Assembly (NCBI GenBank): GCA_000004985.1
Contig: GG738855.1
DNA length: 64,000 nucleotides
Origin: Naegleria gruberi
Taxonomy: Eukaryota
Reading direction: 5' to 3' (one strand)
The notes under the pieces were generated by a model that made no database searches, was not told the DNA's origin, and was given only the letters and a program-made list of their open reading frames with translations. The translations under genes were made by a program, and so were the position numbers. Below, in pieces: positions 10,399 through 57,990 of this stretch. Within the stretch, counting starts at the first letter, position 1, and each line of letters opens with the position of its first letter.

Positions 10399-12093
10399 TT
10401 ATTTACGATTGATAAATTTTTGAATTGGAATTGCACCACTATCACTACCTGTTGCGATACATTTAATAAATTCAGTTGGTTCCAACATTGTAATATCACA
10501 AAAGTATTTAAATCTATTTGCAACATATTGAGCTTCCTTATATCCCATAAATTGAGTGAGATAGTCAACTTGTTGATCGTCCTCTTGGTAGCTTTGTTCC
10601 AATTTCTTCAAAAATGACTGGACAAGTAGTGAATTAATAAAGTGTGCTTCCTCAAAAAGTGTTGGGAACGCCTTAGAAAAGGTATAGCCCTTCTTCCATA
10701 CTGCATTTCTCTTTTGATTACTCGAGTAAATGTCCATATAATATTGATCATAATCCAAAATTAGATATTTCTCACTGTAGTACAAGGTTCTGAATCCTAC
10801 ATTATTGGAAAATACTGGCGAAACTGACAATCCAACCATGGCAAAATTATTCTTGGTGTTACCCAAATCATTAACCTTATTGGGTTGTTGGTTTCTGAAT
10901 AATCTGAATTGATCCTTATGCAAGTGACCGTACAGAATGGTGGTAATCATTTCACTATATTTTGACACAAGTGCCAAGAATTGAGATTCATACATTGGCT
11001 TCCACAATGATTTGTTATCAAATGAATTTTGACTTGCTGGAATATGGGTTACAATGTAAACAGTTACATCTCTAATTGAGAGTTCACTTCTTGCCTTTAA
11101 CAATTCCATTTCCATCCAGGCAAGTTGTCCTGATGGATCACTTGGTGGCTCAGCTCCATTTGTCATATTTGGATATCTATTCGCAGAGTATAAAAGTGAA
11201 TTTAAAACAAGAATAACCAACTTGGATTCTCTTCCCTGAGAAGTCTTGACAATTTCATACTTGTAATATCCACCCTTCAAGAAGGTATTTCTTTGATAGT
11301 CCTCAGTGAGTCCAAACATTTTTCCCCATCCAACAGGTCCAGTCCACAAACTTTGATACCAAGTCAAAGCTTCATTTCCATGATCAGGATCTTCAATATA
11401 TGGCAAATAATAATCAGGATACAAATCATTATTTCCAATGCATGGCAATATTGGCAAATCATAAACATTTAACTGTTTTGCCAAGGTAGATTGCAACATT
11501 TTCGTCACATCCAATGTATTTTGCAAAACAAATGATCCATTAGGCAAGTGATGAGCATTGTAATCTCCATTCATGACAATAAAATCTGGTAAAATTCCAT
11601 TATGCTCCCTAATAACTTGTGCAATTTGTGAAAATGTGCTTTCCACAAGTGTCTTTGGAGCATCACATCCATATCTTCCGTACATTGCATAATCAGTAAA
11701 ATTCGTATCAATTCCCTCGAAAGAAGGTGAACTAGAATTACGAATCAAAATTTTTCTCTTTTCCTCAATAAACAAAAAATCTTGGATTTTTTGTTTGGTA
11801 TTTCTCAAATGATGAAACTCTTGTTGAACACGTTCTGGCTGATTTTCCGTAACTACTTGTTGTGGTTTTCTACAAAAGTATTGATGATTAGGAATGGTTG
11901 GATCATAGAATGGATCATAGTGAATATCAGTCATCCACAAAAAGTAACCAAATGCCGATTGTTCTCCTCCTCGTGATTTTAATGATGAGAATTTATTAAC
12001 TTGTTGTGTTGTTGAACATATTGTTGAAGAAAACAACAAAATGATGAAGAAGGAGAATAAATAATTGGGTGATGATGAAACATGTTGAGACAT
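10399..12093 (-). CDS. Acid-sphingomyelinase-like phosphodiesterase (calcineurin-like metallophosphoesterase), secreted
   Basis: 564-aa ORF with an N-terminal signal peptide. It carries WMTDIHYDPFY, GDYNAHH and GHLHKDQF metallophosphoesterase motifs in the order typical of SMPD1/ASM-like enzymes. Confidence 0.8.
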   Translation of the reverse strand: MSQHVSSSPNYLFSFFIILLFSSTICSTTQQVNKFSSLKSRGGEQSAFGYFLWMTDIHYDPFYDPTIPNHQYFCRKPQQVVTENQPERVQQEFHHLRNTKQKIQDFLFIEEKRKILIRNSSSPSFEGIDTNFTDYAMYGRYGCDAPKTLVESTFSQIAQVIREHNGILPDFIVMNGDYNAHHLPNGSFVLQNTLDVTKMLQSTLAKQLNVYDLPILPCIGNNDLYPDYYLPYIEDPDHGNEALTWYQSLWTGPVGWGKMFGLTEDYQRNTFLKGGYYKYEIVKTSQGRESKLVILVLNSLLYSANRYPNMTNGAEPPSDPSGQLAWMEMELLKARSELSIRDVTVYIVTHIPASQNSFDNKSLWKPMYESQFLALVSKYSEMITTILYGHLHKDQFRLFRNQQPNKVNDLGNTKNNFAMVGLSVSPVFSNNVGFRTLYYSEKYLILDYDQYYMDIYSSNQKRNAVWKKGYTFSKAFPTLFEEAHFINSLLVQSFLKKLEQSYQEDDQQVDYLTQFMGYKEAQYVANRFKYFCDITMLEPTEFIKCIATGSDSGAIPIQKFINRK

Positions 12094-15248: not shown

Positions 15249-16734
15249 TTACATGATAGTACAACAACCCTTTTTACCTCCACCTTCACAGTTGGCAAGC
15301 TTCTTTTCTAATTCCTCAATTCTAGCCTTCAGCTTCTTTTCGTTTTCTAAAAGCTCAGCAATCTTTTCTAACCTTGGATCTCCTCTAGAAACTCTGAGTT
15401 TGTTCTTAATTTGCTTGGCTCTATCAGAAAAGTAGAGAGTGCTCAAGGTCTCTTCACTATTTACATCTGCTGAAGAAACACATGATATCATTACACAAAA
15501 TGCATTACCTCCAATGGAATCTTTCAATAACCGAGTCAGGATTGAATTTCTGTATGGTACAAAGTTTGTTTTCTTCACAAGGGCATTAATGACATTACCC
15601 AAGTTGGATAAACTGAGATTGATATTTGCTCCTTCCTTCAACCGGTCTCCTGTAGCTTCTGTTGATGAGGCTCTTTCACTACCAGCAAGATCGACCAGTG
15701 AAATCTTGTTGGATCTCAAACTGAGACCATCTTCATCACCTTTATCAACTTGATCCATGTAAATTGTCAGAACAGCGTGAGATCTTGAGGAGAATTGATT
15801 CATTTTGGTTTCGCCAACAGTTCTCCTACTAGCTCCTTCATCCAACAACTCGTTCAATTCCTCTTCACTTCCGATTGGCCTTTCAATGAGATTTGTAACA
15901 ATAATTCCCTTCACCTTATCTTCTCTAACATCATATTTTAACTTTTCAGTTCTATTGTGGAGAAGATCGTGAATATTTTCATTATAAATTTCAATATATG
16001 AAGCCTTAATGGTAATATCCGTTTTCTTTTGTTCCTTTCTCACATATTCAAAGAGCTCTCTCACAAAACGAGTCATTATTCCTTGTTGTTGTTGATCTCC
16101 TTTCACACCTTCCATTGTGTAGGTTTTTCCACTTGATGTTTGACCGTATGCAAAGATACAAGCCTGAATTCAAATACAACCTTAATGAAAAGATTAGTCT
16201 TTAAAAACATACATTATATCCCAATATAAATCTCTCCAAACACATTGCTCCTGTAGCTTTATAAATTTCAGTTTGAGCAGAAGTTTCATCAAAAACTCCA
16301 TCAAAGAAAAATTCCTTATCTTCCTTATCCTTTCTCACCAGTTTGATTTTTCCTTCCGATTTGCCTATCGATAAGCAAGAACTACTCTTGAGAGATAATT
16401 CTCTCTGATTCAATGGTCTTGATCTCACCACAACTTTAATATTAGTCTCGTCAACTGCTGACACCATCGTATTGATAGCTTCTAAAGCAACTTGTTGTGA
16501 CTTTTCTTCCTCCTTCCTAGGCGAAACAATAATGGTTGTGGTACCAGCACTCAATTTTGAATTATCCTTCTTTTCATTATTTGTTGATGAAATTGCCGAT
16601 CCAGGAGCACTTCCTGCCTTCTTCTTCTCTACTGCAGTGGTTGTAGCAGTAGCAGTGGAGGGACTCTTTGCTGCTTTAGGATTTTTGTTATTAGTATTAG
16701 CAGCAGGCGCATTTGTTCCTTTTGATGCAACCAT
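15249..16734 (-). CDS. Kinesin motor protein (2 exons; intron ~16164-16212)
   Basis: Exon 1 (16213-16734) reads …IKVVVRSRPLNQRE…FFFDGVFDETSAQTEIYKATGAMCLERFILGYN. A gtatgt…gaattcag intron follows. Exon 2 reads ACIFAYGQTSSGKTYTMEG…LVDLAGSERAS…NINLSLSNLGNVINAL… followed by a short coiled coil. These are canonical P-loop, switch and neck motifs. Confidence 0.9.
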
Positions 16735-17167: not shown

Positions 17168-19213
17168 ATGCACAACAATAAAACATTTGCCTGTTGTTGT
17201 GCAACTCTCTTGGTGGTGCTATTGAGCATTTTGATGATCTCATCGAGGGATGCTCTCGTATTTGGAAAGTTTATCATCAACAACAAAAAAGTAATGCCAA
17301 CCATTACTTTTGAAGAGTTGAAAAAGTTATTGCCAAAGGAAGATTTGAGCAAGTTGAAGGCCGAAGCCTTGATTAATACAGTATCTATTTATTGTTCATC
17401 ATCAGCATCATCAACAAGTAAATATTATTTGAAGGAAACATCGACATCATTTACCTATACATTTGGTAATTATGATTTTGATAAAGCCATCGCTGTTGGT
17501 ATTCTCTATGATGGTTATTCACCAGTTTTGAATAATCAAACTGATGCTGTTGATGGTTGGATGCGTTTGTGGGTCTCTACCTTCACCAATGTTAATAGAG
17601 AATCAAGTGGTGTTGATGCTTGTTATAAATCGGAAATTAACAGACAATATGCTGCTGGTATGGTTGAAGGTTTATTGACACAACCACAAATTTACAACTT
17701 TTTCCAAAATCAATATAGTAATTGGAAGTTTGCAAAGAATAATGTGGATTTGAAGGCCAAGTTTGGTGACAATAATGAATGGGTCAAGTCACACGAAAGA
17801 TTCAGGTCATCTCAACAACAAGGAAGAAATAGTTCTAATTATTATTTCCCATCTGCATTGGTTGCCTACATGCAAGACAATTACAATTGGTTGAATCAAC
17901 AAGTTGCTTCCAATCCAACATCTAATTATTGGAAACAAGTTGGTGGAACTTTGACTCAATTCAATGGTCTTGTTCAAGGTTATACTATTCGTGCCGAACA
18001 AGAAAAGAATGAAGTTTATGGAAGTTTGAATTGGTTGGATTTATACTTTTTACAAGCTGCAGGTGATATGGAAACTTTGGAAACAGCTATTAAGGATCCA
18101 TCAACCACTACCAGATCCAGAAATAATAATAATAATAATGGAATTGTTCTCCCAGATGAAGAAACCATGACTGATTGTAGTGCTCTCATTAAGATTACAC
18201 CAGATTGCCTTAACCTTTTCGCAGGACATACAACATGGAGAGGATACAACATTATCAACAAGATGTACAAGGTCTATAGTTTATTGTTGAACAATGTTGC
18301 CTCAAAGACTGTATCATTTGCTTCATCTCCAAGCTTTTTGAGTAGTAAGGATGATTTCTATGTCACTGAAAATGGTCTCGTCACTATGGAAACAACCAAT
18401 GATGTTTTCAATGAAACCCTCTTCCAATATATTACACCAAAGAGTGTCTTGTGTTGGGTTCGTTCCATTGTTGCCAACAGACTTGCTACAACCTCTAAGG
18501 AATGGGTCTACTATTTTGGACTCTACAATTCTGGTACTTATAACAATCAATGGATGGCTTTGGATTACAAGAACTTTAAACCTGGAGTATGTCATTTGCC
18601 AAAGGATTCTTTCTGGATTTTGGAACAAATTCCTGGATCCGTCATGACTAGAGATGTTACTGATGTTTTGAATAAGCAATCCTTCTGGAGCTCTTTTAAT
18701 ATTCCTTATTTTGAACATATTTATAACATTTCAGGATATCAACAAGCCAAGCAAAAGTTTGGTAATGATTATGATTATAATTTGTGTTCTAGAGCTCTCA
18801 TTTTCAAGAGAGAACAAGCCAAGATTGGAGCTGATAGATCTAAACCAGTTGATTATAAGGATTTCGGTAGAGTTTTACAATTCAATGAATGGAAGACTGA
18901 TCCATACAGTTTAGGCGATCCTAGCAAAGCTGTCTCATCTAGATATGATTTGAGAGATCTAAGATTCGCTGCCTTTGGTGGTATTGATACTAAGGTTACT
19001 GACTATGTCAAGAATTTGAAACACACTTCCATGTGGGGTATTTGTGGTCCTACCCATCAAGACGAATCTCAAACTCCACCATTCACTTGGACTGATAAAT
19101 TCAAGGCCACCCATTTGGGCCAACCTCAAACTTATAATTTCGATTGGGTTGATTTGGAAGATGTTGACTCCTTCTATTCCTCTCTTTCACAAAAATCTAA
19201 AAGAAGAAATTAA
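17168..19213 (+). CDS. Phospholipase B-like (LAMA/PLBD family) protein, secreted
   Basis: 681-aa ORF with an N-terminal hydrophobic leader. Its overall composition and motifs are typical of dictyostelid PLB-like proteins (…CSALIKITPD…LFAGHTTW…). Confidence 0.75.
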   Translation: MHNNKTFACCCATLLVVLLSILMISSRDALVFGKFIINNKKVMPTITFEELKKLLPKEDLSKLKAEALINTVSIYCSSSASSTSKYYLKETSTSFTYTFGNYDFDKAIAVGILYDGYSPVLNNQTDAVDGWMRLWVSTFTNVNRESSGVDACYKSEINRQYAAGMVEGLLTQPQIYNFFQNQYSNWKFAKNNVDLKAKFGDNNEWVKSHERFRSSQQQGRNSSNYYFPSALVAYMQDNYNWLNQQVASNPTSNYWKQVGGTLTQFNGLVQGYTIRAEQEKNEVYGSLNWLDLYFLQAAGDMETLETAIKDPSTTTRSRNNNNNNGIVLPDEETMTDCSALIKITPDCLNLFAGHTTWRGYNIINKMYKVYSLLLNNVASKTVSFASSPSFLSSKDDFYVTENGLVTMETTNDVFNETLFQYITPKSVLCWVRSIVANRLATTSKEWVYYFGLYNSGTYNNQWMALDYKNFKPGVCHLPKDSFWILEQIPGSVMTRDVTDVLNKQSFWSSFNIPYFEHIYNISGYQQAKQKFGNDYDYNLCSRALIFKREQAKIGADRSKPVDYKDFGRVLQFNEWKTDPYSLGDPSKAVSSRYDLRDLRFAAFGGIDTKVTDYVKNLKHTSMWGICGPTHQDESQTPPFTWTDKFKATHLGQPQTYNFDWVDLEDVDSFYSSLSQKSKRRN

Positions 19214-19410: not shown

Positions 19411-20619
19411 ATGCCAAACACGCGCCACCATCACGTAATTTCCAAATATTTATTTACTCACTTTGAACGGAGAGATCTTTCGTTATTGATGAATGGTTAT
19501 GTAAATTATCAACAAGATGATCAGATAAATACTCTTCCGTATGTAGCATCCATTCCGATTGATATATCGGAAGATGAAGGGTTGATGGGAGGTAAAATTG
19601 GTACATTGGTTGGATTATTTATTTTGAGTGTTGTATTTGGTATATTGCCATATATTGTTCATCATTTATCTCAATTGGAAAGATTGAAAAAGTTAAAGAA
19701 GGCACTTCATATTGTTCAACTTATTTTCGGATATTGTAATGCTATTGCTGCTGGTGCAATTTTGGGAAGTGGATTGACTCACTTGTTACCTGATAGTATT
19801 GAATGTTTTAATAATTATTTTGAATTGTATAATCATCAGTTTGATAATTCAACATTGAGTTCAGTAGTTTTTGGTGATTCACCAACTACTAATGGTACAT
19901 TTACTCCAATTTCGGATACAGTTGTTGATTATCCTTGGTCAATGATGATTGCTGGTACTATTAGTTTGTTTTTGGTTGGTTTGGATAGAGTTTTCTCTGA
20001 ACATTCACATGGATCTTCGAATAGTTATGGAGGACATTCTCACTCACATAAAGGAGAGGAAGACCATTTAATTGTAAATTCTGAGGAAAGACATGAAATG
20101 TACAGTGAATTGGAACATGAAGAAAATAAGGAACGTCACAAGTATTCCTTCCTTGTCAAATCATTGCTTTTTACATTTGCTATTTGTGTCCATTCAGTTT
20201 TTGAAGCATTTGCACTTGGGTTGGAGACAAATACTGAATCATTTGTATCCTTGCTAGTTCCTATTGTAGCTCACAAGGGTTTCGAATCATTGACAACAGG
20301 ATTCATTGTATTGAGATATACATTGTGTAAATCATGGTTCCAGGTTCTTATTTTGATACAGGTTGCCATCTATGCATTGAGTACACCTATTGGAATGGGA
20401 ATTGGTATGGCCATCAGCAGTGGCGATTTGTCCTTTTCTTACTATATGATTTCAGGTATTATTCAAAGTATTGCTTGTGGGTCTTTCCTTTTCATTGCTT
20501 GTTTCGAAATTATTCCAACAAGTTTGGAGGAAAATTTTGGATTGTGGGATAGAGCTTTGAAAATGTTCTTGATTTGTTTAGGATTTGGAGTCATGTGTAT
20601 TTTGGCTGCCTTCTCATAA
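19411..20619 (+). CDS. ZIP (Zrt/Irt-like) metal transporter
   Basis: A multi-TM protein with a His-rich cytosolic loop (HGSSNSYGGHSHSHKGEEDH) and a conserved HSVFEAFALG-type motif in the TM core. Confidence 0.8.
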   Translation: MPNTRHHHVISKYLFTHFERRDLSLLMNGYVNYQQDDQINTLPYVASIPIDISEDEGLMGGKIGTLVGLFILSVVFGILPYIVHHLSQLERLKKLKKALHIVQLIFGYCNAIAAGAILGSGLTHLLPDSIECFNNYFELYNHQFDNSTLSSVVFGDSPTTNGTFTPISDTVVDYPWSMMIAGTISLFLVGLDRVFSEHSHGSSNSYGGHSHSHKGEEDHLIVNSEERHEMYSELEHEENKERHKYSFLVKSLLFTFAICVHSVFEAFALGLETNTESFVSLLVPIVAHKGFESLTTGFIVLRYTLCKSWFQVLILIQVAIYALSTPIGMGIGMAISSGDLSFSYYMISGIIQSIACGSFLFIACFEIIPTSLEENFGLWDRALKMFLICLGFGVMCILAAFS

Positions 20620-20675: not shown

Positions 20676-21836
20676 TTATTGTTGTAACTGGTTTCGGATT
20701 GTGTTTGCTTCATAAGAAGAGATAATACTTCTTCCTCTAGTTTTCCTAGTTACTGCTTCCTCTTTTTGTTCGATACTTTGTGCAGAGGTCCTCATAAATT
20801 CATTCATTTCTTCATCGGTTGGCATTGGTTTCGTGTGGTGTTCATCATTCAGCAAGTAACATTTTGTCATTCCCTTTCCTTTCACTTCGATATTCCTCTC
20901 CTCAAAAACAAATCCCAAATCATGAACTCTCTCATAGGTTGATCTGGTTATCTGTATTCTTCCTGAAAGAGATGTTGATTCCATTCGAGAAGCTGTGTTA
21001 ACTGCATCACCCCACAAATCGTAGGCAAACTTTTTGGTTCCAATCACACCAGCCACAACTGACCCAGTATTGATACCAATGAATGTATCACCTCTCTTCA
21101 ATCGTTGGGCAACTGATTCAGGTAAGATATTCTTCAATAGATTTTCAGAGTGTTTCTTCTCGTCTTCCAACAGAGCTGCTGCCTTTTTTTCTGAGGTGAT
21201 ATCCTTTATGGTTAAAATAATTAGAACGCCCTTTCCTGATACCTTAACTGTGAAAAGATTGAGTTTTGTTGGGAATTTTGTTCCATTTTTTCTTAAACAT
21301 TCGGATTCTAATGAATCATGACCTCCACTATCATTTCCTGAAAACTCATTTACGAGGGCACTCACTGATTTTCTGACAGATTCTTTTGTTTTCCCTTCCT
21401 CGAATATGGAATAGAAGGAGGTTCCAAGGATTTCCTGTGTTGCAAGACCAAGCATATTAAGGGCTGGTGTGTTGATTAGTTCCACTTCTCCTTCTGTATT
21501 GATGATTATTGAACCATCAACACTTGAATTAATTACAGAGCATACGCCCGAATAAGATCCTTGTCCTTCATCTGATTGCCTTTCTGATTTTAGACTAAAC
21601 TTATTAGACAATGGATCTGAGAATAGATTGTAGAGTGCTAAATTCTTCAATCTCTCATTGTTTTCGAGAGTTTCAATAGGAATATAATTCAATAGCATCT
21701 TTGTGTAGTAATATTGATTAGAATTCGACCCCATAATTGAGAGAATCAATTTACAAAAAATTAAAGAAATACAAGTACCCAAAATAGTAAATAACAATAC
21801 AGAAACATAACTGGATTTCTGAAGAAACTCTTGCAA
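20676..21836 (-). CDS. C-terminal part of a receptor-type protein: TM, PAS domain and a truncated class III nucleotidyl-cyclase homology domain
   Basis: The PAS-like segment reads …INTEGEVELINTPALNMLGLATQEILGTSFYSIFEEG…. Then …LPESVAQRLKRGDT is joined directly to FIGINTGSVVAGVIGTKKFAYDLWGDAVNTASRMESTSLSGRIQITRSTYERV…FEERNIEVKGKGMTKCYLL. Only the second half of a cyclase catalytic domain is present. Confidence 0.7.
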   Translation of the reverse strand: MQEFLQKSSYVSVLLFTILGTCISLIFCKLILSIMGSNSNQYYYTKMLLNYIPIETLENNERLKNLALYNLFSDPLSNKFSLKSERQSDEGQGSYSGVCSVINSSVDGSIIINTEGEVELINTPALNMLGLATQEILGTSFYSIFEEGKTKESVRKSVSALVNEFSGNDSGGHDSLESECLRKNGTKFPTKLNLFTVKVSGKGVLIILTIKDITSEKKAAALLEDEKKHSENLLKNILPESVAQRLKRGDTFIGINTGSVVAGVIGTKKFAYDLWGDAVNTASRMESTSLSGRIQITRSTYERVHDLGFVFEERNIEVKGKGMTKCYLLNDEHHTKPMPTDEEMNEFMRTSAQSIEQKEEAVTRKTRGRSIISSYEANTIRNQLQQ

Positions 21837-22182
21837 ATTCTTGCATAAATGATGCTAGTTTTAGAGAGAGAGGATATGACCTAGCTTGATTAGTGTAATG
21901 TTCAAAAAACAAGGTACTAATTTCTTGCATTGTAAAGTTGGTTGACTGGTATTTGTAGAATTTCTTAGTTAACTCAGACACTTTGGATGAAGTTGAAACA
22001 AATTCAGACATCATATATTCGACACCAATACAATAACTATAGTAATTTTGCACATTAAATGTAAAATTATTTGCTTGCAAATATTCAGTACAATTATCTG
22101 AAACTCCAAATTTCAATGTCTTGTCCATCGATGGATAGATACCAACAAGAGGTGTATCGTATGCTAAATATTATGGAAATTA

Positions 22183-23181
22183 TCAGTAATTAAATTGAGG
22201 TTGAAACTTACGAATATTAATATTACCAAATATCAGATCCGTATAATTAGACGAAAGTCCATCAATTTGATCCAAAAGAATGTGGCTCAGCTCGTCAAAT
22301 GTAGAACTAGTTCTTAAAAACGGATGGGCAATGTTAGTAGCCCCAAAGTTGTTGGTATTTCCTAAACCATAAACGGATAAAAGTTCTGATAAGTAGTATC
22401 CACAAATTTGTACAAAATAAATTACTCTAGCTCCAGCTTGAATATTATAATAAGTTTTGAGTGCGCTTACTGCATTTCCATTAATTTCATTATAAAACAT
22501 TCCCAAACAAAATGGGTTGACTAAAACCAAAACCATGACTGAAACTATGAGGGTGTACTTGGCTTTGGTAATTTTCGAAATCAAACTGGAATCAAGTGAA
22601 GAGTCAATAGATGATTGCTTGGAAAGTGACTGATATATTCTAGCTATCTTGTCTCTTGGAGTCTCCTTCTTGATTGTTTTTACCAATCTTTTAAGGTAGT
22701 ACTGTCTGTAAAGAACAGTAATAATGAAGCACATAGCGATTGGCAACAATGCTAAACTACCAGCTACGAGATAGATTTGAAAATACGATAATAATGAAGT
22801 TGTGGATAATTGGCTAGAATCTACATAATTCGAACAAAATGCAGACAGAACATCAAATGCATTATCTCTGTTACTCCAATAATACATGAAACTATAGTCC
22901 TGTATAGAATTCATGAAAGTACCATTAATAACAGACCTAACGAGCTGATCTCTTGTTGATTGAGAAATTGTTGTGGAGTTGGACAATAACAATAAATCAT
23001 TGAGAGGAAAACTTTCTTGGATTCTTTCTAAGAAGCTTTTCAGATTATTGGTAAATTCATTGACTGATATTCTTCTTATTTGCACTGTACCTGAATAGTA
23101 TCCATTGTCTCTAATCGTAGGAATTAATGCTGTGTGTTCTCCTGCACCGTAACTATTTATGAAATTAGCAAAAGAGCTCAA
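22183..23181 (-). CDS. Middle exon block (extracellular/luminal plus TM) probably belonging to the same receptor-type gene as 20676-21836 and 23344-25563
   Basis: 332-aa ORF with a C-terminal TM helix. It is flanked by short gtaagt…ag introns (for example an intron at ~23140-23178 and a donor at 23338-23343). Confidence 0.5.
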   Translation of the reverse strand: MSSFANFINSYGAGEHTALIPTIRDNGYYSGTVQIRRISVNEFTNNLKSFLERIQESFPLNDLLLLSNSTTISQSTRDQLVRSVINGTFMNSIQDYSFMYYWSNRDNAFDVLSAFCSNYVDSSQLSTTSLLSYFQIYLVAGSLALLPIAMCFIITVLYRQYYLKRLVKTIKKETPRDKIARIYQSLSKQSSIDSSLDSSLISKITKAKYTLIVSVMVLVLVNPFCLGMFYNEINGNAVSALKTYYNIQAGARVIYFVQICGYYLSELLSVYGLGNTNNFGATNIAHPFLRTSSTFDELSHILLDQIDGLSSNYTDLIFGNINIRKFQPQFNY

Positions 23182-23343
23182 TAAACTTACGCTGTATAGA
23201 TAGGAGCATCAAAAACACCTTTTTGTGCAAGTAATATCAAATCGTGTAGAACATTCTTGTCATTTTCCATTCTATGAAGATAGTTTTGGATATATTCCTT
23301 TAGTAAGAGTTAGAGAATGTTATATTGGAGGGATACTACTTAC

Positions 23344-25563
23344 CTGAAAGGTTTCTGTTGGGAGACTATCATATTCTGTCTTCCAATCACTTCCATAATT
23401 AATATAATAATTAATTGCACTTTGCATACTTCTGACATTTCTTATTACAGACATTCCAACTTCCTCAGTCAAACAAGCAGAATTCAAGTTTACAACACCA
23501 ACTCTAATCGAAGATCCAATGTAAATAGCAAAAGAAGCGCCTCCTAAACCAACACTGAAAATGATCACAAAAATTAAAATAAACAGACTGTTTCTCAAAC
23601 TTTCGTTTGGTTTGTTCCTAATTCCATTCCTGAACAATAGGTCCTTGTGCATTTCATGTTCTTCTTCTTCGTCTACCTCACTTACTGGTGCTTCAGAGAA
23701 TAAATCAGATTCGGTAGGATCGAATGAAGTTGGTACTACTTGTGACTCTTTTCTAGGCCTTTTAGCACTCATGTACAAACCTCTTGCATCCTTTTCCAAT
23801 CGATTGGCTTCTTCATAGAGGGTTTCAGATTTCACCTTGTCAAACTGAAAAAGCTCAACGTACGTGGCATACAACCTGAGAATCTGTTTACTTCTCTTAC
23901 TTCCCATTAATTCCTCAAACATTTGATTACATTCCACTGTAATCTCTGCAATCTTATTTGCAATCTTTTCAATGGTCGAGTATTGTGGTGATTCTTCAAT
24001 AAGTTCCTTCCAAAAGTCTCTGTGGAGAGACAGAAGCATATCCTGATTGTATTTCAATTCTTTGATGGTTCCATCGTCACCCAAATCAGAACTATTAATT
24101 GATGAGATATTTAGCCTATGCTCTTGCAATTCTAATGATTTGTATAGGGAAATAGTTCTCATAAAAATATTCTTTGAATGTCTAACAATATGGTAGAGTA
24201 TATCAATGGATTTGTCCAAATTGATGCTCTCATCTTCTTCTGCATGAGCTAACAGCATGGAAATGTAAAATAAACATTTAGGATCTCTGATATTCTTATT
24301 TATGAGCGTCTTGGCAGTAAGTAAATATAATTCCCTTTCTGTCACATCTCCAGCAACAATTGCATGCTTTATTCTATGGTATTGACTAAAATAGAAGCTT
24401 AATTTAGAGAAATATCCTCTTCCATGATTCTCTTGCATAATATTTGTACAATTTACATCAACGCATGCAAGAATTGACTTTCTGTCAGATGATTTCAGAT
24501 CAATCCCACTGAGTAGGGTTTTTCTGACTGAGTTGATTATCAAGCGCTGGTACAATTCCATCAAGATTATGAAAATAACAAAGAAAATGATTGCCAAGCC
24601 AAATGTCAAAGGCAGGCCAATTATTTGTAAATAGAAATTATTTCCCTTCAGTATAGTAGAAACCAGTGAACCAATAGAAACGCCTGTTCTAGCACCTGCA
24701 ACAGCAAATAATATTGAATTATCAACAGTATTAAAACATGTCTTGAAATAGAATGTAACTGAAGCAAATATCAAGCTCATTACAATATTCAATGAATCTG
24801 AGATGATCTTGTATTCCAATGGAATTGAAAATATGAGTAATACACCCATAAAGTTTACAATGTCAAGCGTCATAATATGAATGGGATAAGATGAGCAAAA
24901 AGGAACCCTATCATAAGTATTCATGTCACTAACAATCAATCTATTCAGGATTATTAATGCAAAGAGTATTGCCAAACATCCAATAGCTAATACAATTACT
25001 ACCATGTTTCCAGAATCAATACAAGATACTTGATTGTACCTGTACAATAGTCGCTCCAATGTAGTTTCATTAATGAGATTCGAACAATTATAAAATCCCA
25101 CCAGTATGTTTACGAAAAGAGGAGAAAGTACAAGAAGTAAATTACCAAATATCCATAATCCTATTCTTACATATCTAATATTATCGAGTGCTTTCGTAAC
25201 TACCCACACAGAGGCAATGCAAAGAACCAAATTCATCATGACAAACATCATAACACCCAAACCTATTCCAATACTTGCATAATATCCCCACATGTCCACC
25301 AGCAATGTAATGGGGAAATTGATTATTGAATATATTATATTCGAGTATAACTCTCCTACCTCTCCATTTCTAATCGAAGGAATAAACACAGAAATATACA
25401 GAAATAAGGAATGAAACAATAGAGTTGATAGATACCATTTCCATCCACGCTTTGAACCCTGTATCTTTACGGAAAGGAATGTGGAGAGAGTATTTTGGAG
25501 AGTCTTATTATTGAGGTTGGCTCTAATCAAATTCTGACTAATCGAACTGCCAATATCAGTCAT
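23344..25563 (-). CDS. N-terminal multi-pass membrane region of the putative receptor-type gene
   Basis: ~740-aa ORF with at least 8 hydrophobic helices. It ends at a GTAAGT donor (minus strand, 23338-23343) rather than at a genuine stop codon. An ~83-nt micro-exon follows at ~23189-23271. Confidence 0.55.
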
Positions 25564-26058: not shown

Positions 26059-29000
26059 TTATGCAACATTCTTTGCCTTCTTCATTCTGGCTCGTATGAA
26101 AAGTGCAATCACAACAGCAAGAAGAACACCAGCAACGCACACGACAACTACTCCACCAACTGATGAGGCTACTACAGCAATTAACACTGTGTTGTCGTTC
26201 ACTAGGATTGGTTCTGAGTTTTCTGGTTCTCTTCCCTTTGTGTTTGCCTTTTTATAGTTTTGGTCAATTACTGCAAAGGAAGTCAAGTGACTAGTTCTGC
26301 AACTCATTGAAAAAGTAACAATATTTGAGGAGGGAGAAAATTTCAAATCATTAATTGTCGTTTCTATGCCGTCTGTCTTCCACTCCTTGTCTGAATTATC
26401 AAAAAACATGCAGGTGAAATTTAATAACGCATTTGTATCTTTGGCAGTTGACAAATTGGAGAAGTACAATTCGATAGGTTCTTCCAGGTCAACTATTGGA
26501 ATTTTCTCATCATTGATATTGAACATGGAAATTGTTACCACTGAACTAATTGCATAAGCTTCCTCACTTGAAGGACCACTTGAAGAAGAAACTGAGCTAA
26601 TCACCTTTACCACCTCAGTTGAATTAAATCCTCTTTCATTGATAAGATAATCTTTCACTGCTGTAGGAAAATTGACTGTTACTGAACTTCCAAACTTTGT
26701 GAACGTGATATTCTGGTTATTAACCTCTTTTAACGAATAAATCAATTCTTTCGTCTCAATATTTCCATTTTGTCCACCACATTTGAAGGTGTTATTGACC
26801 AATTCTAAAGTTCCAATACAGTAAGGAGTGGTACAATTTCTACCAATCCATCCTTCCTTACAAATGCAATTATCAGGTCCAATACATGTTCCTTGATTAC
26901 AAACTCTTTGATCAATCGAAGGAATTCCAAAACAAATTGGAACAGAACAGTCCGAACCAGTATAATTGGCATTTCAGAGACAAGTATTTAATCCAACACA
27001 CGAACCATGTGAAGAACAAACTGCCTCATTATTTTCTGGTATTTCATTACATGAAACCATTTGACATTCCGAGCCAAAATACCCAACCTCACATTTACAA
27101 ATGTTGAATGATTGGCATGAGCCCTTTCCTCTGCAAACTGATGAAGAATTACTTGATTTTCCATAGCAAGATGTGAAATTACATTGAGGACCTGAATAAC
27201 CTTCCTTACAAAGACACGAATCCTTATTGAAACAAGTTCCGTGTGAAGAGCAAGCAGTCAACTCATTCTTTCCAATACCAAAACAATAGAACTGATCACA
27301 TTGGTTACCATAATAACCTAATTTACAAGTGCAGGAATTAGGCGAAGAGCAAATTCCATTTGATGAACAAGTAGAAACGTTTCTATTAGAAAGTCCAAAA
27401 CAAATTGGAATGTCACATGCAACACCAGTGAAATTTGCATTACATTCACAAGTATTGACATTGACACATGAGCCATTTCTAAAATTACAAACTGAAGAGT
27501 CAGTGGATGGGATTGAAAAACAAAGAGGAAGTTGACATGAATTTCCTGTAAAATTTGGATCACATTTGCAAGTGTTCAATTCTGTACAATTTCCATTTCC
27601 AGAACAAACTGAACTATTCGAATTCTTCAAACCAAAACAATAGAAATTTTCACAATTATTACCAAAATAACCTGAATTGCAGTCACAAGTATTGAACCCG
27701 CTGCATTTTCCTCTTCCTGAGCAAACATTAGTTTCATTATTTCGAATTCCATAACAGGAAGTCAACTCACAATTAGATCCTTCATAGAACTCATTACAAA
27801 TACACTTATTAGGTGAAACACACGTTCCTTTCCCACTACAAACTTTAGAATTGATGGCAACAATACCATTACACATTTGAATATCACATTCTGGTCCTCC
27901 ATATCTATTCGAAAGTGAACAGTTACATGTATTATATCCTACACATGTTCCATTTCTATTACAAACGTTTGGATCATTAGAAAGTTTCCCAAAACATACT
28001 GGAAAGCAAGGAGAAGGTGTTCCATCATCATTACAAACTAATCTATGAAATTTCTTAATGGAAGTTCCATCAATGAATAGAAATTGATTATTATCTATCA
28101 TTGTAATACCCATTATGCTTTTTAGAGTTGGAATAGTTCCATCTGGAAGAATAGCTTTTCCTCCAATACCAACAAGTGTTGAGATTATTCCATTGTCAGG
28201 AGAAACCATACGAATCCTTGAATTGTCTGTATCTGCCACATATAAAGTGCCATCTGGAGCCAAAACTGCCGAATGTGCTCTATTTATCGATGCACTATAT
28301 AATTGTTAAAAGAAACATGTATTCGATTTAGACTAAAGTGATGTTAACTTACCTTTTAGCTGGACCGCCATCTCCACTAAATGAAAATGATCCACTCCCA
28401 TCTCCAACCAATGTTGAGATAATATCTGTCGCTTTGCTAACAACTCGTATAGCTCCACTGAAAGTGTCAGCAATCACCAAATCATCTTTTTCACTCAATG
28501 AAATTCCATAACTGAAATCGATTTGAGTTTGAGAGCCAACTACTTGACCATCCCCAGAATAACCTCTTGTTCCACCAATATAGGTATATATAAAACCTGT
28601 TGTTGGTTTGATATTTCTAATTCTGGCATTATTGGTATCAAGAATGTAGACTAAACCAGAGGTATTACTGTAAGCAACAGAGTAAGGGGTGTCAAGTTTA
28701 GCTGCAATGGCTAGCTCTCCATCTCCAGTAAATCCTGCTGATCCAGTTCCTGCAATAGTTGAAATAAACCCATTAGAAACCTTTCGAATTCTATTGTTAT
28801 AAGAATCTGCAATATAAACATCACCTTTGAATGGATCTACAGAAACACCTCTTGGGAAATACAACTTTGCATTGATTGCCAGCACTCCATCTCCAGAAAA
28901 CCCTCCACTTCCAGTTCCGGCTATGGTTGTAATCGTACCATTCAATTAATCTTTCGAATTTTGTGAGCATTTGCATCTGCAATATATAATCTCACCATTA

Positions 29001-30839: not shown

Positions 30840-33773
30840 TTGTTGAACCACATCAAAAAAATATTCGAAACATGAATCGCACCAACACGCTTTCGTTTCT
30901 TCTTCTTCTGACATTATCCATTCTTCTTTTAACACTTTCGCGTATCCATGCAGCCATCAAAACTTCATCAATTCTTGCCTTTGGCTATAATCATAGATGG
31001 TAAATTCGGTCAGACACCAAATTTTGGTCAAAAATTACCTGTCAGACATTTGACTCTCGAACAGATATTGTTCAACTCTACTGAATCCATCAAAAAAGCA
31101 AAGATATCATCTAGTAACTTACCAGATAGTCTTCTTCCAGTGTTATCGCATGTGAGTGGAAGTAAACAAGGAGGAAATTTTGTGTTTCATGTCAAGTATA
31201 TGAATAATGGTCAATTTGTGAATCAGACAGTGTTTTCATGTGGGAAAATGGGAAAGTTAACACCTCTAGTACCTATTTCGTCAACGCCGATGCCATCTTA
31301 TGGATTTGTGAGTGAAGGAGTTTCGAATTATGGAGACGAAAGATTGGTCAATCAAGAAATTATTAGTTTAAATTGCAAATATTCTTGTATTGCTGTAACT
31401 AATCAAGGATTATTATTCATCAAGTGGCACAATGAAACTAGTTGGAAATTAGTAGAGTTGCCATCAACCTTCACAAATCCATCAAATTATGAAAATGTCA
31501 ATTTGAGAATTTCACAAGCAGTCATTGGAGTTTCCTTAACTGAAGGATCTAACATTGAAGAAACCTTCCTATTACTGACTGATTCTGGATTTGTTTTGAG
31601 TTTTGGATATTGTAATAGTGGTTTGAGAGGTGATTCAACAAGTGCAACAGATTCTCTTTCGTCTAATTCATTCTATACCTTTACTACACTTTCAAATATT
31701 AGCTCCATTGGAGTTGGACCAGGTATTGGCTATGCCATCAATAGCACTGGTCAATTACACGTGTGGGGAAACAATCAAAATGGAATTCTAGGCGATCCTG
31801 ACCCAAATCTCATTCTTTCAACTCCAAAACATTTGGAATTTAATTGTTTCATGAAGAAATTGTCATTTGGTGAGAGTTTTTGTTTATATTTGTGTCAGGA
31901 TGGAAGAGTTTTTGGTAATGGACAAGATGCTGAAGGTGAAATATCAGCAGCACCTGGATCAATTATTTACACTCCTGTGGAAATTACTAGCTCGTTATCT
32001 GCTACATTTAATAGTGATATGATTATTGACATTTCGACTAGTGAAAAAACCAGTTTGGCTCTCACATCAACTGGTAAGATAGCAACATGGGGAGATGATA
32101 GTCAGCTCGCATTTGGAAGAGAAGGAAATGGTGGATACACAATTCCAGCAACATTTAGTTCTCTAAATATTGTAAAGGCATTTTTTGTTTACAATATTGG
32201 AATTGCAATTACAAATACCAATGAAACTTATTATTGGGGATCTAATAGTGCTGGAGAAGCATGTTTGGGTGATTTGTGGTTTGCTGCCAAGCCAACTGTC
32301 ATTCCAACATTGTCAGATGTTTCACAAACACATGTCAATGAAATTTATTTAAGAGCTGCTTGTGGAATGATGCTATCCACAGATGGTATCACCAGTTCTA
32401 ATATCACATACTGGGGGAAATGTAGTTCTGGATTGGATGGTCAATATGTTGATCCAACAGTCGCAGTTTCTGCCACAACCTTTGACAACTCACTTTTTAA
32501 TAATGAAATTCTCAAAAAGTTTGCTCTGTTTAGAGGAACAGCTGTTGTTAACTCTATTTCTGGGAACAGTTATGGATGGGGAGAAGGTAGAGATTATCAA
32601 TTGGGAGATGATTCAAGTCATCCTGTTCCATTAGCACTATCAGTGAATGTTACTGATATTTTTAGCTCTAATCAATTTACAATTTTGGTTAAAAACGATG
32701 GTGGTGTTTATGGATTGGGGACTGTATCTAGCTCTGGAGCATTTGGTTCGTCCGTGCAAATGTTAACCACACTCACAAAATTGGACACTGATTACGTGAC
32801 AAGTGATGGAAGCTCTGTAATTCAAGTTAAAGCTCTAGAAGGTATATCATATCTATTGACATCAAGTGGAAAGGTCTATGGTGCTGGATCCAATGCAAAT
32901 CAACTCATTATTAACAATTCCACAACCAAATTCGAAAACTTTGTAAGAATTAGTGGAGATGATTTACCAGATAATCACAGAATTCGAAAGATTATTGTCT
33001 TTCCAAATTCTCCACTAATATTTATTACCTATGAAGGAGATGCTTATTATGTCTATCAAGGTATTCACAAGTTTCAGCTCCCAAATTCAAACGATTCATT
33101 TGTAATTCATGCATCTTCAAATTATTTGAATTTCTATGTTATTACAAAGAAAGGAAATGTTTACGCTATGGGAACAACTAATGAATTTATGGAAATTTCT
33201 CAAAATCCAATGGTTTCAAGTTTGAATAACATGACATTGTATGCAACAAAGGAATCTCTTGGTGGTGTGCCTTACTTTATTTCCCCTGAAACCAATTTAG
33301 CCATTTTGGCCATCTCTAATGGATGGACATGTAATGGAACAGCCTCTACCAGTGATTCTGTTTGTAATGGACATGGAGCATGTGTCGATCAGGATGTATG
33401 TGCCTGTAAAGAAAATTATGATGGATCCTATTGTGAAAAGTTCACTTGTGGCGGAATTTCCAATGAGGATACAACCACTGTTTGTTCTGGAACAGGAAGT
33501 TGCACATCATTTGACACATGTGTTTGTAAACAAGGATATAGTGGAGCAAATTGTGAAATTCCTTCTTGCTTTGGAGTAGCAAGTAGCAACACTGGAATTG
33601 TATGTAGTGGAAGAGGTCAATGTATGGGATTAGATAAATGCAGTTGCATGACTGGATATTTTGGATCCAAGTGCGAATACAAGGCATGTTATTTTGAAAG
33701 TATAAGCGCCGGTACAGGAGCTATTCTATCAATCAAGAACAAGCTTTGTAGAGATATCAATAAATATCTTTAA
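30840..33773 (+). CDS. Secreted protein with RCC1-like beta-propeller repeats and C-terminal tenascin-like EGF repeats
   Basis: The signal peptide MNRTNTLSFLLLLTLSILLLTLS… is in one frame and the mature protein is in the next frame. The ORF track starts the ORF at 30948. The apparent 1-nt frameshift is near 30990. It has RCC1-like units (HVWGNNQNGILGD, TWGDDSQLAFGREGNGG, YYWGSNSAGEACLGD, GWGEGRDYQLGDD). Its C-terminus is CNGHGACVDQDVCACKENYDGSYCE…CSGRGQCMGLDKCSCMTGYFGSKCE. Confidence 0.7.
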
Positions 33774-47627: not shown

Positions 47628-48176
47628 CAATTTTAAAATTATTGATTGTCATATATAAAAGTTTGGTACCTATAACCTCGGATACCTCTTACTCCAATCT
47701 CTTATTGATTTAAGATTTTGAAATTGTTTATTATTGAATTTTTATAAAGAGTATTGACACGAATCAGAAGCTTCTTATTGTGACAACACTTGATAGAAGA
47801 ATGGGAAAGTGGCTGCATTAATTCAACATATTGAAAGTGAACAAGGTTCTCAAGATTTGGAACTCTTCTTCATGAAGAGGAGGTTATTGGGTGGTGACTA
47901 GAGAGAAACATTTCCTTGTAGCTTTTCTACTAGTAAATGATTAATTGACCAAGATGTTGACCTGTAATATGGAAACACAATAAAATTCAATAATACTGAT
48001 AAATACAGTAGTGAATATGAATGGTAATCATAAATCACTGAAAAAATCATGATTGGATCCTTTTTGAGACTTTTGGAAGTCAACTTGNNNNNNNNNNNNN
48101 NNNNNNNNNNNNNNNNNNNNNNNNNNNNNNNNNNNNNTAGTGTCATCACAGACTAAACCTTTAGATAATAATCAAA

Positions 48177-56230: not shown

Positions 56231-56335
56231 AGGGTTGGGAAAGCGTGTTGTTTTGATTTGTTTCTTCTGTGGCTCCATGGTCTTTANNNNNNNNNNNNNN
56301 NNNNNNNNNNNNNNNNNNNNNNNNNNNNNNNNNNN

Positions 56336-57222
56336 NATGGTAAAAGATTGGAGGAAGAACTACTCTTTGTATAAGTTGGATCATCTTCCTTATTGTTTGG
56401 CAATGAGTAACCAAAGTTATTCTCGAGCATATTTTGGTGTGATTCTATAATATTCAAAAGTGTACTCTCAATATTAATGAGTTTGGTAATTTGGTCACAG
56501 ATTTGAATTCTTTGTGCTCTCAAATTCACCTTATTTGAACTCGTTTGGCTATTGGACATGGAGAAGGCAGGAGTTGTTTCCTCACCATCTTCTTCAAAAT
56601 CCATAAGGAAGAGAGAACCAGGTTGCTCTTCATCCATCTCGGTTAAAATTTCCCACAAGTTTGACAACTCCTTGATTCCATTTTCCATTGCGTTTTTCAA
56701 TGTACCCAACTTGTTAATAGAATCTAAACTAACTCTTTTAAGCTCAGTGTATTGTTCGAAACTCTCAGCACCATATAAAGAAGAACCAAAGCTTGTCTCA
56801 CTGTCTTGGTGTTTGAGGACTGCAGCCTTTGCCAAAGTAGTTTTCATTTTGGAAGGAGAATCTTTCTTGTATGGGGATCGACATCTAGAACCATGATTAT
56901 TTGTTGGTCTTTTGGTTCTTCCAGTTGTTGGTGAAACTGGCATCATGTCATTGTTAGTAGAGGAGAAATTAGTATTATTGGTGGAGGGAATTGTTGTATT
57001 ATTGGAGGTACTTGTGTTAGTAGTTGGTTCAACAATAATTGTGGAGGTTGTAGTGGTTGGAGTCTTGCTGTCATTCTCGGATCCAGCAAGTAAAACTTTA
57101 AGAGTGGAGACTTGTTTACGGAAGTGAATTTGTTGGTGGTGAAATTCTCTGATGAGTTCCATCTTGTTGAAAGGAACAGTTGTAGTAAATTGCATCATGG
57201 AAAGGTTCTTAAATATGTACAA
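56336..57222 (-). CDS. Hypothetical Ser/Thr/Asn-rich protein; the C-terminus runs into the N-gap
   Basis: ORF 56284-57222 continues into the 56287-56335 gap. It has low complexity and a possible coiled coil. Confidence 0.4.
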
Positions 57223-57990
57223 GTTTGTCTATTTACTAGTTATGATCACAAGTATAAAGATTGATGAAATCAAGAGATTATGTTGTTCGTATTGAATACG
57301 TTCGTTGTTGTGTGCTCTAAACTAAAAAAAGCTACTCCACTTGAACTTGCTTTGATGTGCACGCTAATTGCCTCTCACGCTTGGTTGGTCACTCAAATAT
57401 ATCAAGCCAAAATGGAGACTTTTTTTAGAGAGAAGAAAAAAAACAATAAGTAAACCAGGGTAATATTTATTACAAAAATGTCTCCCGCTCTCAAACAACA
57501 TCGCTAATTTTATTGAATACCTGCGTTATGGTGCTGAGAGTGTTGGTGTTTTATCAAGCTTGAGGATCTCTTTCAAAAGTGCAGTGTGTGCAACTTTGAA
57601 ACCATGGCCAATGCTTAACAACACAAAATAAATATTACAGAAGATAATTTTCTATCAATATCATTGTAAGAGGTTGACTGAGGAGAGATAACACAATATT
57701 ATGATAAGAATAGATTATTGCCATTTTTAGATTTGGATTCGATTATTTTGATATCTGGCAGTTTAAGACTATGGTCTATAGTCATTTTGGATATGAGGCA
57801 TTGGGCTGGATTTTATTCGTTCCATTTTAGTTTTAAATTGTTATCCTTTTCAATTTTGTCTTTTTTGTAAAGTGTTTGGTTTAGTAAAAAAGAAATTAGC
57901 TATTAAGGAATAAGTATTAAAGAGAAACATATCATATTGTCAATGATCTCNNNNNNNNNNNNNNNNNNNNNNNNNNNNNNNNNNNNNNNN

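What the first reader, a model, noticed from the sequence alone, without database searches (positions are those of the whole stretch)
20676..25563. Receptor-type gene with a PAS domain and only the C-terminal half of a class III cyclase catalytic domain
The region from …RIGINTGxVVAGVIG… to …GDxVNxASRMES…VKGKG… is well conserved. The N-terminal half of the cyclase domain is absent from the continuous ORF. That half carries the metal-binding Asp residues and the FSDIVGFT motif. LPESVAQRLKRGDT runs directly into FIGINTGS. The protein may be a catalytically dead pseudo-cyclase, possibly a regulatory or dimerisation partner, or the first half may be supplied by another exon or gene. The large multi-TM N-terminal region (23344-25563) probably belongs to the same gene.
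Basis: partly seen in the sequence, partly recalled or inferred. Interest (0 to 1): 0.55.

Follow-up and report, generated by a model that had tools for sequence, protein, structure and literature searches.

The report
Broken receptor cyclase gene in Naegleria
This is one of the many membrane receptor adenylyl cyclase genes of the amoeba Naegleria gruberi; in this assembly a one-base frameshift and an internal deletion have removed the catalytic first half of the enzyme domain, so it is an ordinary damaged gene copy (or an assembly error), not a new kind of half-enzyme.

Summary
The minus-strand ORF 21836-20676 has a PAS domain and only positions 104-182 of 183 of the class III cyclase profile, and RLKRGDTFI runs straight into GINTGS.

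The window is Naegleria gruberi. My four-exon model (25563-21751) is identical to XP_002680149.1 / NAEGRDRAFT_64855 (1226 aa).

A metagenome contig that is 98.3% identical, introns included, shows what is missing.
- After RGDTFI it continues with AEALADVSVFFSDMVGFT...KIKTIGDAYFAVG, an intron, then GVGNTQSDH. That is an intact N-terminal half.
- It lacks an extra C present at window 21814-21813.

The window copy therefore carries two lesions. One is a +1 frameshift, which truncates the annotated model. The other is an in-frame deletion of about 106 codons plus one intron. It removes both metal-binding Asp, the substrate Lys and the phosphate-binding Arg.

- Paralogues in N. fowleri, N. lovaniensis and N. 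gruberi have the full architecture (TmcB-like region, PAS, complete cyclase).
- No complementary half lies in the 64 kb.
- dN/dS against the intact relative is 0.24, so the damage is recent.

Best reading: a recently inactivated copy or null allele. An assembly error cannot be excluded without reads. A functional half-domain pseudo-cyclase is unlikely. Interest is low.

The parts
23344..25563 (-). Exon 1: start codon, about 8 hydrophobic segments, cytosolic TmcB-type TPR region, one further TM segment
   Evidence: ORF list; Pfam TPR_TmcB E = 1.1e-12; splice model identical to XP_002680149.1; hydropathy scan
23298..23343 (-). Intron 1 (46 nt, GTAAGT...AAG)
   Evidence: Model restores the frame and matches the annotated protein P0193
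23191..23297 (-). Exon 2
23153..23190 (-). Intron 2 (38 nt, GTAAGT...TAG)
22212..23152 (-). Exon 3: probable extracellular/loop region with two TM segments
22164..22211 (-). Intron 3 (48 nt, GTAAGT...TAG)
21815..22163 (-). Exon 4, part upstream of the frameshift (original frame)
21813..21814 (-). +1 frameshift. The window reads ATCCAG where the 98.3%-identical contig L001 reads ATCAG. In the original frame the window then runs into a stop at 21753-21751, which is the end of the annotated 1226-aa model
   Evidence: Gapped alignment; insertion at CDS column 1499; coordinates; tail of P0193
21735..21809 (-). Last transmembrane helix (YVSVLLFTILGTCISLIFCKLILSI), readable only in the shifted frame
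21195..21518 (-). PAS domain (PAS_9)
   Evidence: Pfam E = 6e-15; coordinates
21078..21191 (-). Signalling helix / cyclase-transducer-like segment (EKKAAALLEDEKKHSENLLKNILPESVAQRLKRGDTFI)
   Evidence: Aligns to adenylate cyclase 8 residues 943-966 just before C2; weak HNOBA C-terminal match; invariant in paralogues
21076..21077 (-). Deletion junction (TTCATTG|GTATCAAT). About 106 codons plus one intron, roughly 370 nt, are present in the relative L001 and in paralogues but absent here
   Evidence: The blastn alignment with L001 stops at 21077 while L001 continues with the N-terminal half of the domain; alignment A1; tblastn gap
20850..21077 (-). Retained C-terminal half of the class III cyclase domain (GINTG...AGVIG...YDLWGD...VNTASRMES...VKGKG)
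   Evidence: Pfam profile positions 104-182 of 183; PDB matches
20676..20849 (-). C-terminal tail and TAA stop (20678-20676)

Best explanation
The locus is Naegleria gruberi gene NAEGRDRAFT_64855. It belongs to the large Naegleria family of receptor-type class III adenylyl cyclases.

The family architecture, from N- to C-terminus, is:
- a TmcB-like multi-pass membrane region with a cytosolic TPR segment;
- an extracytoplasmic region;
- a final TM helix;
- a cytosolic PAS domain;
- a signalling helix;
- the cyclase catalytic domain.

In the intact form, a signal sensed by the membrane, extracellular or PAS parts would pass through the signalling helix to a homodimeric catalytic domain that makes cAMP. 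The Lys...Asp substrate signature points to cAMP. This mechanism is inferred from the family and was not tested here.

In this genome copy two recent lesions have inactivated the gene.
1. A one-base insertion at 21814-21813 shifts the frame just before the last TM helix and ends the protein at 1226 aa.
2. An in-frame deletion of about 106 codons plus the intervening intron fuses the signalling helix directly to strand beta-4 of the catalytic domain. It removes beta1-alpha3, both metal-binding Asp, the substrate Lys and the phosphate-binding Arg.

The half cyclase is therefore the remnant of a normal enzyme in a pseudogene or null allele. It is not a designed half-domain.

Shown here: the lesions relative to an intact near-identical sequence, and the family architecture. 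Inferred: that the lesions exist in the organism rather than only in the assembly, and that the product is non-functional.
For: - Organism and gene: the spliced model is identical to XP_002680149.1 from N. gruberi. TTTGGG repeats in the window match the reported candidate N. gruberi telomere repeat.
- Intact relative: contig L001 aligns over 2368 nt at 98.3% identity, introns included. It lacks the extra C and carries AEALADVSVFFSDMVGFT...KIKTIGDAYFAVG, an intron, then GVGNTQSDH after RGDTFI.
- Paralogues: those from N. fowleri and N. lovaniensis match Guanylate_cyc positions 3-182 of 183, together with PAS_9 and TPR_TmcB. The frame-repaired product is collinear with N. fowleri FDP41_009091.
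- Extent of the gap: alignment A1 shows it exactly from TFI to GINTG. About 120 residues of adenylate cyclase 8 C2 have no counterpart.
- Two independent disabling lesions lie within about 740 bp of one gene.
- Recency: dN/dS against L001 is 0.24 (p = 5e-5 against neutrality), and all motifs of the retained half are intact, so the damage is recent.
- No flanking repeat longer than a possible ATTG microhomology is visible that could explain an assembly collapse.
Against: - No reads were available, so neither lesion is verified in the organism.
- The window is a draft with several N gaps, although none lies inside the gene.
- dN/dS of 0.24 shows no relaxation of constraint. This is also what an intact gene with two assembly errors would give.
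- The deletion keeps the reading frame. That has a 1 in 3 chance, but it is also expected if a truncated product were tolerated or used.
- The 3' breakpoint could not be seen directly, because L001 ends 268 nt into the deleted segment.
Confidence: 0.62

Rival explanations
1. Assembly or sequencing artefact. The gene is intact in the organism, and the extra C and/or the roughly 370-nt deletion exist only in the draft reference sequence.
For: - The window is a gapped draft: 50-N gaps at 48088, 56287, 57951 and 59319, and a 2739-N gap after a telomere tract.
- The frameshift is a C to CC length change.
- dN/dS of 0.24 and perfectly preserved motifs in the retained half are what an intact gene would show.
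- The nearest relative is intact.
Against: - Two separate errors within about 740 bp of unique, gap-free sequence would be unusual.
- The deleted segment is not flanked by a repeat that would cause collapse. At most 4 nt of microhomology is possible.
- Established knowledge, not tested here: the N. gruberi NEG-M reference is a multi-fold Sanger assembly, in which consensus indels and clean internal deletions are rare.
Confidence: 0.28
2. Functional truncated protein. The C-terminal ORF (PAS, signalling helix, half cyclase), alone or fused to the receptor if the frameshift is an error, acts as a catalytically dead regulator or dimerisation partner of paralogous cyclases.
For: - The deletion is in frame, and the PAS domain, signalling helix and the beta4-beta5 dimerisation-arm region are retained.
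- Naegleria has many paralogous cyclases that could be partners: at least 81 according to PMC9928731.
Against: - The truncation is not conserved. The 98.3%-identical relative and all examined paralogues have the full domain.
- The missing part is about half of the fold (beta1-alpha3), not just catalytic residues. From established structural knowledge of class III cyclases, known pseudo-cyclase domains keep the whole fold.
- The frameshift detaches the ORF from its promoter-proximal exons.
- No exact copy of the ORF product is on record in any other assembly.
Confidence: 0.07
3. Split gene. The N-terminal half of the catalytic domain is supplied by another exon or another gene, and the two halves assemble.
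For: None found.
Against: - The codons for TFI and GIN are adjacent in the DNA, so no intron can insert sequence there.
- tblastn with three N-terminal-half queries finds nothing above noise in the whole 64 kb.
- The near-identical relative encodes the half in place.
- A database search with that half was uninformative: only 3 candidates were scored.
Confidence: 0.03

Closest known systems
Naegleria gruberi predicted protein XP_002680149.1 / EFC47405.1 (NAEGRDRAFT_64855, UniProt D2V7M3), 1226 aa
   Same: It is this gene. The sequence is identical to my four-exon model 25563-21751, including the last 20 residues (QLCFCIVIYYFGYLYFFNFL).
   Different: The annotated model stops at the frameshift-induced stop codon. 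The PAS and half-cyclase ORF downstream (21836-20676) is not part of any annotated N. gruberi protein found in the search.
Naegleria fowleri FDP41_009091 (XP_044557556.1, 1605 aa) and other Naegleria TmcB-like/PAS/cyclase paralogues (N. lovaniensis C9374_007051 and C9374_003576; N. gruberi NAEGRDRAFT_81665)
   Same: Collinear architecture: multi-TM region, TPR_TmcB, extracytoplasmic region, TM helix, PAS_9, signalling helix, cyclase. Identity is 34% over about 1380 residues and 70% in the retained cyclase half.
   Different: They have the complete catalytic domain (profile positions 3-182 of 183) and an uninterrupted frame. Neighbouring genes differ, so N. fowleri FDP41_009091 may be a paralogue rather than the orthologue.
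Environmental Naegleria contig ERZ929261 k127_182879 (L001) and its product P0005
   Same: 98.3% DNA identity over 2368 nt with the same introns. It is an allele or orthologue from a closely related strain.
   Different: It has no frameshift, and the N-terminal half of the cyclase domain is present with both metal-binding Asp and the substrate Lys. The contig ends inside the domain.
Class III adenylyl cyclase catalytic domains with solved structures (mammalian AC8/AC9 C2, mycobacterial and cyanobacterial homodimeric cyclases)
   Same: The retained half aligns from beta-4 to the end and keeps the adenine-specifying Asp (YDLWG) and the transition-state Asn and Arg (VNTASR).
   Different: About 105-120 residues have no counterpart here: beta1-alpha3, the two metal-binding Asp, the substrate Lys and the phosphate-binding Arg of the IRxG motif.
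Dictyostelium TmcB (tiny macrocysts protein B) family, Pfam PF25474
   Same: The N-terminal multi-pass region is followed by the TmcB-type TPR segment (E = 1e-12).
   Different: The Naegleria proteins carry a C-terminal PAS-cyclase module. From my own knowledge, not tested here, TmcB itself is not described as a cyclase.

Membership tests
Class III nucleotidyl cyclase catalytic domain (Pfam PF00211) | Full-length domain (about 180 residues, beta1 to beta8) | tested here: not met
   Only profile positions 104-182 of 183 match. Paralogues match positions 3-182.
Class III nucleotidyl cyclase catalytic domain (Pfam PF00211) | Two metal-binding Asp (the FSD motif in beta1 and the IGD motif in the beta2-beta3 turn) | tested here: not met
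   Both lie in the deleted segment. They are present in L001 (FFSDMVGFT, KTIGDAY) and in paralogues.
Class III nucleotidyl cyclase catalytic domain (Pfam PF00211) | Substrate-specifying pair (Lys and Asp for ATP) | tested here: not met
   The Asp is retained (YDLWG, 21023-21009). The Lys (KIKTIGD) is deleted.
Class III nucleotidyl cyclase catalytic domain (Pfam PF00211) | Transition-state Asn and Arg (VNxASR motif) | tested here: met
   VNTASRMES at 20999-20985.
Naegleria TmcB-like/PAS receptor cyclase family | N-terminal multi-TM region with TPR_TmcB, a later TM helix, and a PAS domain before the cyclase, collinear with paralogues | tested here: met
   Pfam matches; hydropathy scan and collinear BLASTP to N. 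fowleri FDP41_009091; same domain set in six paralogues.
Naegleria TmcB-like/PAS receptor cyclase family | Single uninterrupted reading frame from receptor to cyclase | tested here: not met
   An extra C at 21814-21813 relative to L001 leads to a stop at 21753-21751 in the original frame.
Pseudo-cyclase (catalytically dead but structurally complete regulatory cyclase-homology domain) | Whole fold retained, with substitutions at catalytic positions | tested here: not met
   About 106 residues of the fold are deleted and not substituted.
Pseudo-cyclase (catalytically dead but structurally complete regulatory cyclase-homology domain) | The degenerate form is conserved in orthologues | tested here: not met
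   The closest relative (98.3% DNA identity) has the intact N-terminal half.
Pseudogene / null allele | Disabling lesions relative to an intact close homologue | tested here: met
   A frameshift and an internal deletion relative to L001.
Pseudogene / null allele | Relaxed selection | tested here: inconclusive
   dN/dS is 0.24 over 745 codons, from 18 synonymous and 16 non-synonymous differences. This fits either a very recent inactivation or an intact gene.
Pseudogene / null allele | Lesions present in the organism's DNA; no full-length transcript | not testable with these tools
   No reads or RNA-seq of the strain were accessible. Exact look-ups found no independent contig.

The most novel reading that the evidence does not exclude
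The in-frame deletion allele is real and expressed. It would be made either from an internal start or as a full-length receptor if the frameshift is a sequencing error. The resulting PAS-signalling-helix-half-domain protein would heterodimerise through the retained signalling helix and beta4-beta5 arm with paralogous Naegleria cyclases and act as a dominant-negative regulator. That would be a naturally occurring half-domain pseudo-cyclase.
Probability: 0.05. Interest if true: 0.55.

Novelty: already known. Interest (0 to 1): 0.12.

Why it matters
The value is mainly curatorial.
- The reference N. gruberi model NAEGRDRAFT_64855 ends in a frameshift-derived tail.
- The PAS/half-cyclase ORF downstream of it is unannotated.
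- The locus should be flagged as a disrupted gene or re-sequenced.

It is one example of turnover in a very large, lineage-expanded family of receptor cyclases, and it lies about 35 kb from a telomere-repeat tract. It does not reveal a new signalling mechanism. If the low-probability reading were true, and a truncated domain were used as a regulator, it would interest people who study cyclase dimerisation.

Tried and rejected
- A homologue search with the whole 1581-aa conceptual protein was swamped by low-information candidates and gave only 4 weak hits.
- Exact-sequence look-ups found nothing on record, so I obtained no independent contig of the same strain. These used the neighbouring phospholipase-B and ZIP ORFs, the C-terminal ORF with two alternative starts, and the annotated protein P0193.
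- Two exact-pattern scans of JGI metagenome contigs, one with each flank of the deletion junction, returned nothing.
- The last homologue search used the 72-aa N-terminal half from L001 to look for a stand-alone partner gene. It scored only 3 candidates and did not even return P0005, so it is uninformative.
- I looked for an intron that could explain the frame change at 21854-21751. No GT...AG pair of plausible length and phase exists, and the relative simply has one C fewer.
- I considered loss of the deleted segment by cryptic splicing or retro-processing. The 5' breakpoint has no GT in any register allowed by the ATTG microhomology, and the other introns are still present.
- I did not run structure prediction of the truncated domain. 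A predicted partial fold would not tell whether the fragment is stable.
- Searches for the metagenome project accession and for TmcB literature gave nothing useful.
Full report
**Observation**

The minus-strand ORF 21836-20676 (386 aa) contains a PAS domain (PAS_9, E = 6e-15, residues 107-214). It also matches the class III cyclase profile PF00211 at E = 3.2e-25, but only over profile positions 104-182 of 183. The sequence ...LPESVAQRLKRGDTFIGINTGSVVAGVIG... is read from uninterrupted DNA, and the junction lies at 21077|21076.

Against solved structures, the helix before the junction aligns with residues 943-966 of adenylate cyclase 8. The part after the junction aligns with residues 1088-1160 of its C2 domain (E = 8.6e-32 for the chain). 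About 120 residues of a normal domain therefore have no counterpart.

**Gene structure and organism**

The window has about 34% G+C. The four long minus-strand ORFs between 25563 and 20676 join through three short GTAAGT...AG introns of 46, 38 and 48 nt, which keep the frame.

The resulting 1226-aa product is identical, residue for residue, to Naegleria gruberi XP_002680149.1 / NAEGRDRAFT_64855. The window also carries a (TTTGGG)n tract at about 60028-60404. This is the repeat reported as the candidate telomere repeat of N. gruberi (PMC3622300). The window is therefore N. gruberi reference-type sequence, and the gene lies about 35 kb from a telomere-repeat tract.

The annotated model ends in a 20-residue tail (QLCFCIVIYYFGYLYFFNFL) and a stop at 21753-21751. 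The PAS/half-cyclase ORF overlaps this tail in another frame. No intron of plausible length or phase can link the two frames.

**The decisive comparison**

A homologue search with the 386-aa ORF returned P0005 at 95% identity. It is encoded on a 2636-bp metagenome contig, L001 (ENA ERZ929261).

L001 aligns with window 23445-21077 at 98.3% identity over 2368 nt, introns included. It is an allele or orthologue from a very close strain. A second contig from the same sequencing run covers the 5' end at 99.2% identity. Two differences matter.

1. L001 reads GAAATC-AGTTATG where the window reads GAAATCCAGTTATG, with the CC at 21814-21813. In L001 the frame runs straight from ...ARVSSEI into SYVSVLLFTILG..., the last TM helix, and on into the PAS domain. 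The window therefore has a +1 frameshift.
2. The alignment stops at 21077. L001 continues after RGDTFI with AEALADVSVFFSDMVGFTKISSGLPPVDLVRMLNTVINGFDDLTEKFQLEKIKTIGDAYFAVG, a 52-nt GTAAGT...TAG intron, and then GVGNTQSDH. This is the missing N-terminal half, with both metal-binding Asp and the substrate Lys.

Alignment with paralogues places the window's gap exactly between TFI and GINTG. About 106 residues are missing. Together with the intron, the deletion is roughly 370 nt. Its 3' end was not seen, because L001 ends inside it.

Paralogues read IR(I/V)GINTG at this position. The two breakpoints may therefore share an ATTG microhomology. This is inference only.

**Family context**

An exhaustive profile-free search with exon 1 found 68 related cluster representatives. 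The named ones are Naegleria proteins of about 1500-1700 aa.

Four of the six I scanned match Guanylate_cyc together with PAS_9 and TPR_TmcB. The N. fowleri and two N. lovaniensis proteins match profile positions 3-182 of 183. The N. gruberi model P0133 breaks off at position 126. The other two are gene models that break off before the cyclase domain; P0129, for example, ends at FFSDM.

The frame-repaired window product (1584 aa) is collinear with N. fowleri FDP41_009091. Identity is 34% over about 1380 residues and 70% in the retained half. Naegleria is known to hold a very large set of membrane cyclases, at least 81 according to PMC9928731.

The intact form is thus an ordinary member of a known, expanded family. 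Its Lys...Asp signature points to adenylyl cyclase. This assignment rests on established class III cyclase knowledge and was not tested here.

**What the lesions do**

The deletion removes the following:
- strands beta1-beta3 and helices alpha1-alpha3;
- both metal-binding Asp;
- the adenine-binding Lys;
- the Arg of the IRxG motif.

It keeps the following:
- the beta4-beta5 arm;
- the Asp of YDLWG;
- the Asn and Arg of VNTASR;
- the VKGKG end.

Half of the fold is missing, so the remnant cannot be a catalytic domain. From established structural knowledge, it is unlikely to fold as one. In addition, the frameshift ends translation of the receptor part before the last TM helix.

**Real lesion or artefact?**

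Arguments for real lesions:
- There are two independent lesions within about 740 bp.
- The sequence there is unique and free of gaps.
- No flanking repeat is present that would collapse in assembly.

Arguments for caution:
- The window is a gapped draft.
- Between the window and L001 there are 18 synonymous and 16 non-synonymous differences in 745 codons. This gives dN/dS = 0.24, with p = 5e-5 against neutrality.
- The retained half has every conserved motif.

Constraint therefore acted until very recently, or still acts. I could not find any independent contig of the same strain.

My estimates are:
- about 0.6 for a recent pseudogene or null allele;
- about 0.3 for an artefact;
- less than 0.1 for a functional truncated protein;
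- about 0.03 for a split gene.

The idea that another exon or gene supplies the first half is excluded for this window. The flanking codons are adjacent in the DNA, and tblastn finds no N-terminal half anywhere in the 64 kb.

A regulatory pseudo-cyclase is not supported. The truncation is private to this sequence, it removes fold elements rather than catalytic residues only, and it sits downstream of a frameshift.

**Verdict**

The feature is real in the sequence, but it is the remnant of a normal receptor adenylyl cyclase gene in a damaged or mis-assembled copy. Interest is low. The practical outcome is a correction to the annotation of NAEGRDRAFT_64855.

Noticed in passing
window 60028-60404, then N run 60405-63143: A tract of (TTTGGG)n, degenerate at its inner edge, on the + strand. 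It is followed directly by a 2739-N gap and then by more unique sequence. TTTGGG is the reported candidate telomere repeat of N. gruberi (PMC3622300). Either a chromosome end has been scaffolded or concatenated to another piece, or the tract is interstitial.
   Followed up: partly
window 48088-48137, 56287-56336, 57951-58000, 59319-59368, plus single N at 41832, 48195 and 63145: Several 50-N gaps and isolated N bases lie in the 20 kb next to the telomere-repeat tract. Assembly quality falls towards this end of the scaffold.
   Followed up: no
window 21751-21813 (minus strand): The last 20 residues of the public N. gruberi model XP_002680149.1 (QLCFCIVIYYFGYLYFFNFL) are translated from the shifted frame. 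They are an annotation artefact of the frameshift, and the PAS/half-cyclase ORF downstream is not in any annotated protein recovered here.
   Followed up: yes
window 26974-28263 (minus) and 30948-33773 (plus): Two ORFs carry many teneurin-type EGF repeats. The second combines an RCC1-like beta-propeller with EGF repeats. The ORF 26059-26802 next to the cyclase gene has a weak GPS-motif match and a C-terminal TM segment, so it may be the end of the same EGF-repeat surface protein.
   Followed up: partly
window 17168-19213 (+), 19411-20619 (+), 15249-16115 (-), 10399-12093 (-): The neighbouring genes look ordinary and intact: phospholipase B-like (E = 1.7e-146), ZIP metal transporter, a kinesin motor fragment, and an acid-sphingomyelinase-like metallophosphoesterase.
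   Followed up: partly
L002 10001-11909 (N. fowleri homologue) compared with L001 2369-2636: The intron inside the cyclase domain sits at different positions in the two lineages. It follows FFSDM in the N. fowleri gene and follows AYFAVG in the N. gruberi-type gene. Several public gene models of the family stop at such introns (for example P0129 and P0006 end at FFSDM), so apparently truncated cyclases in this family are often annotation artefacts.
   Followed up: partly
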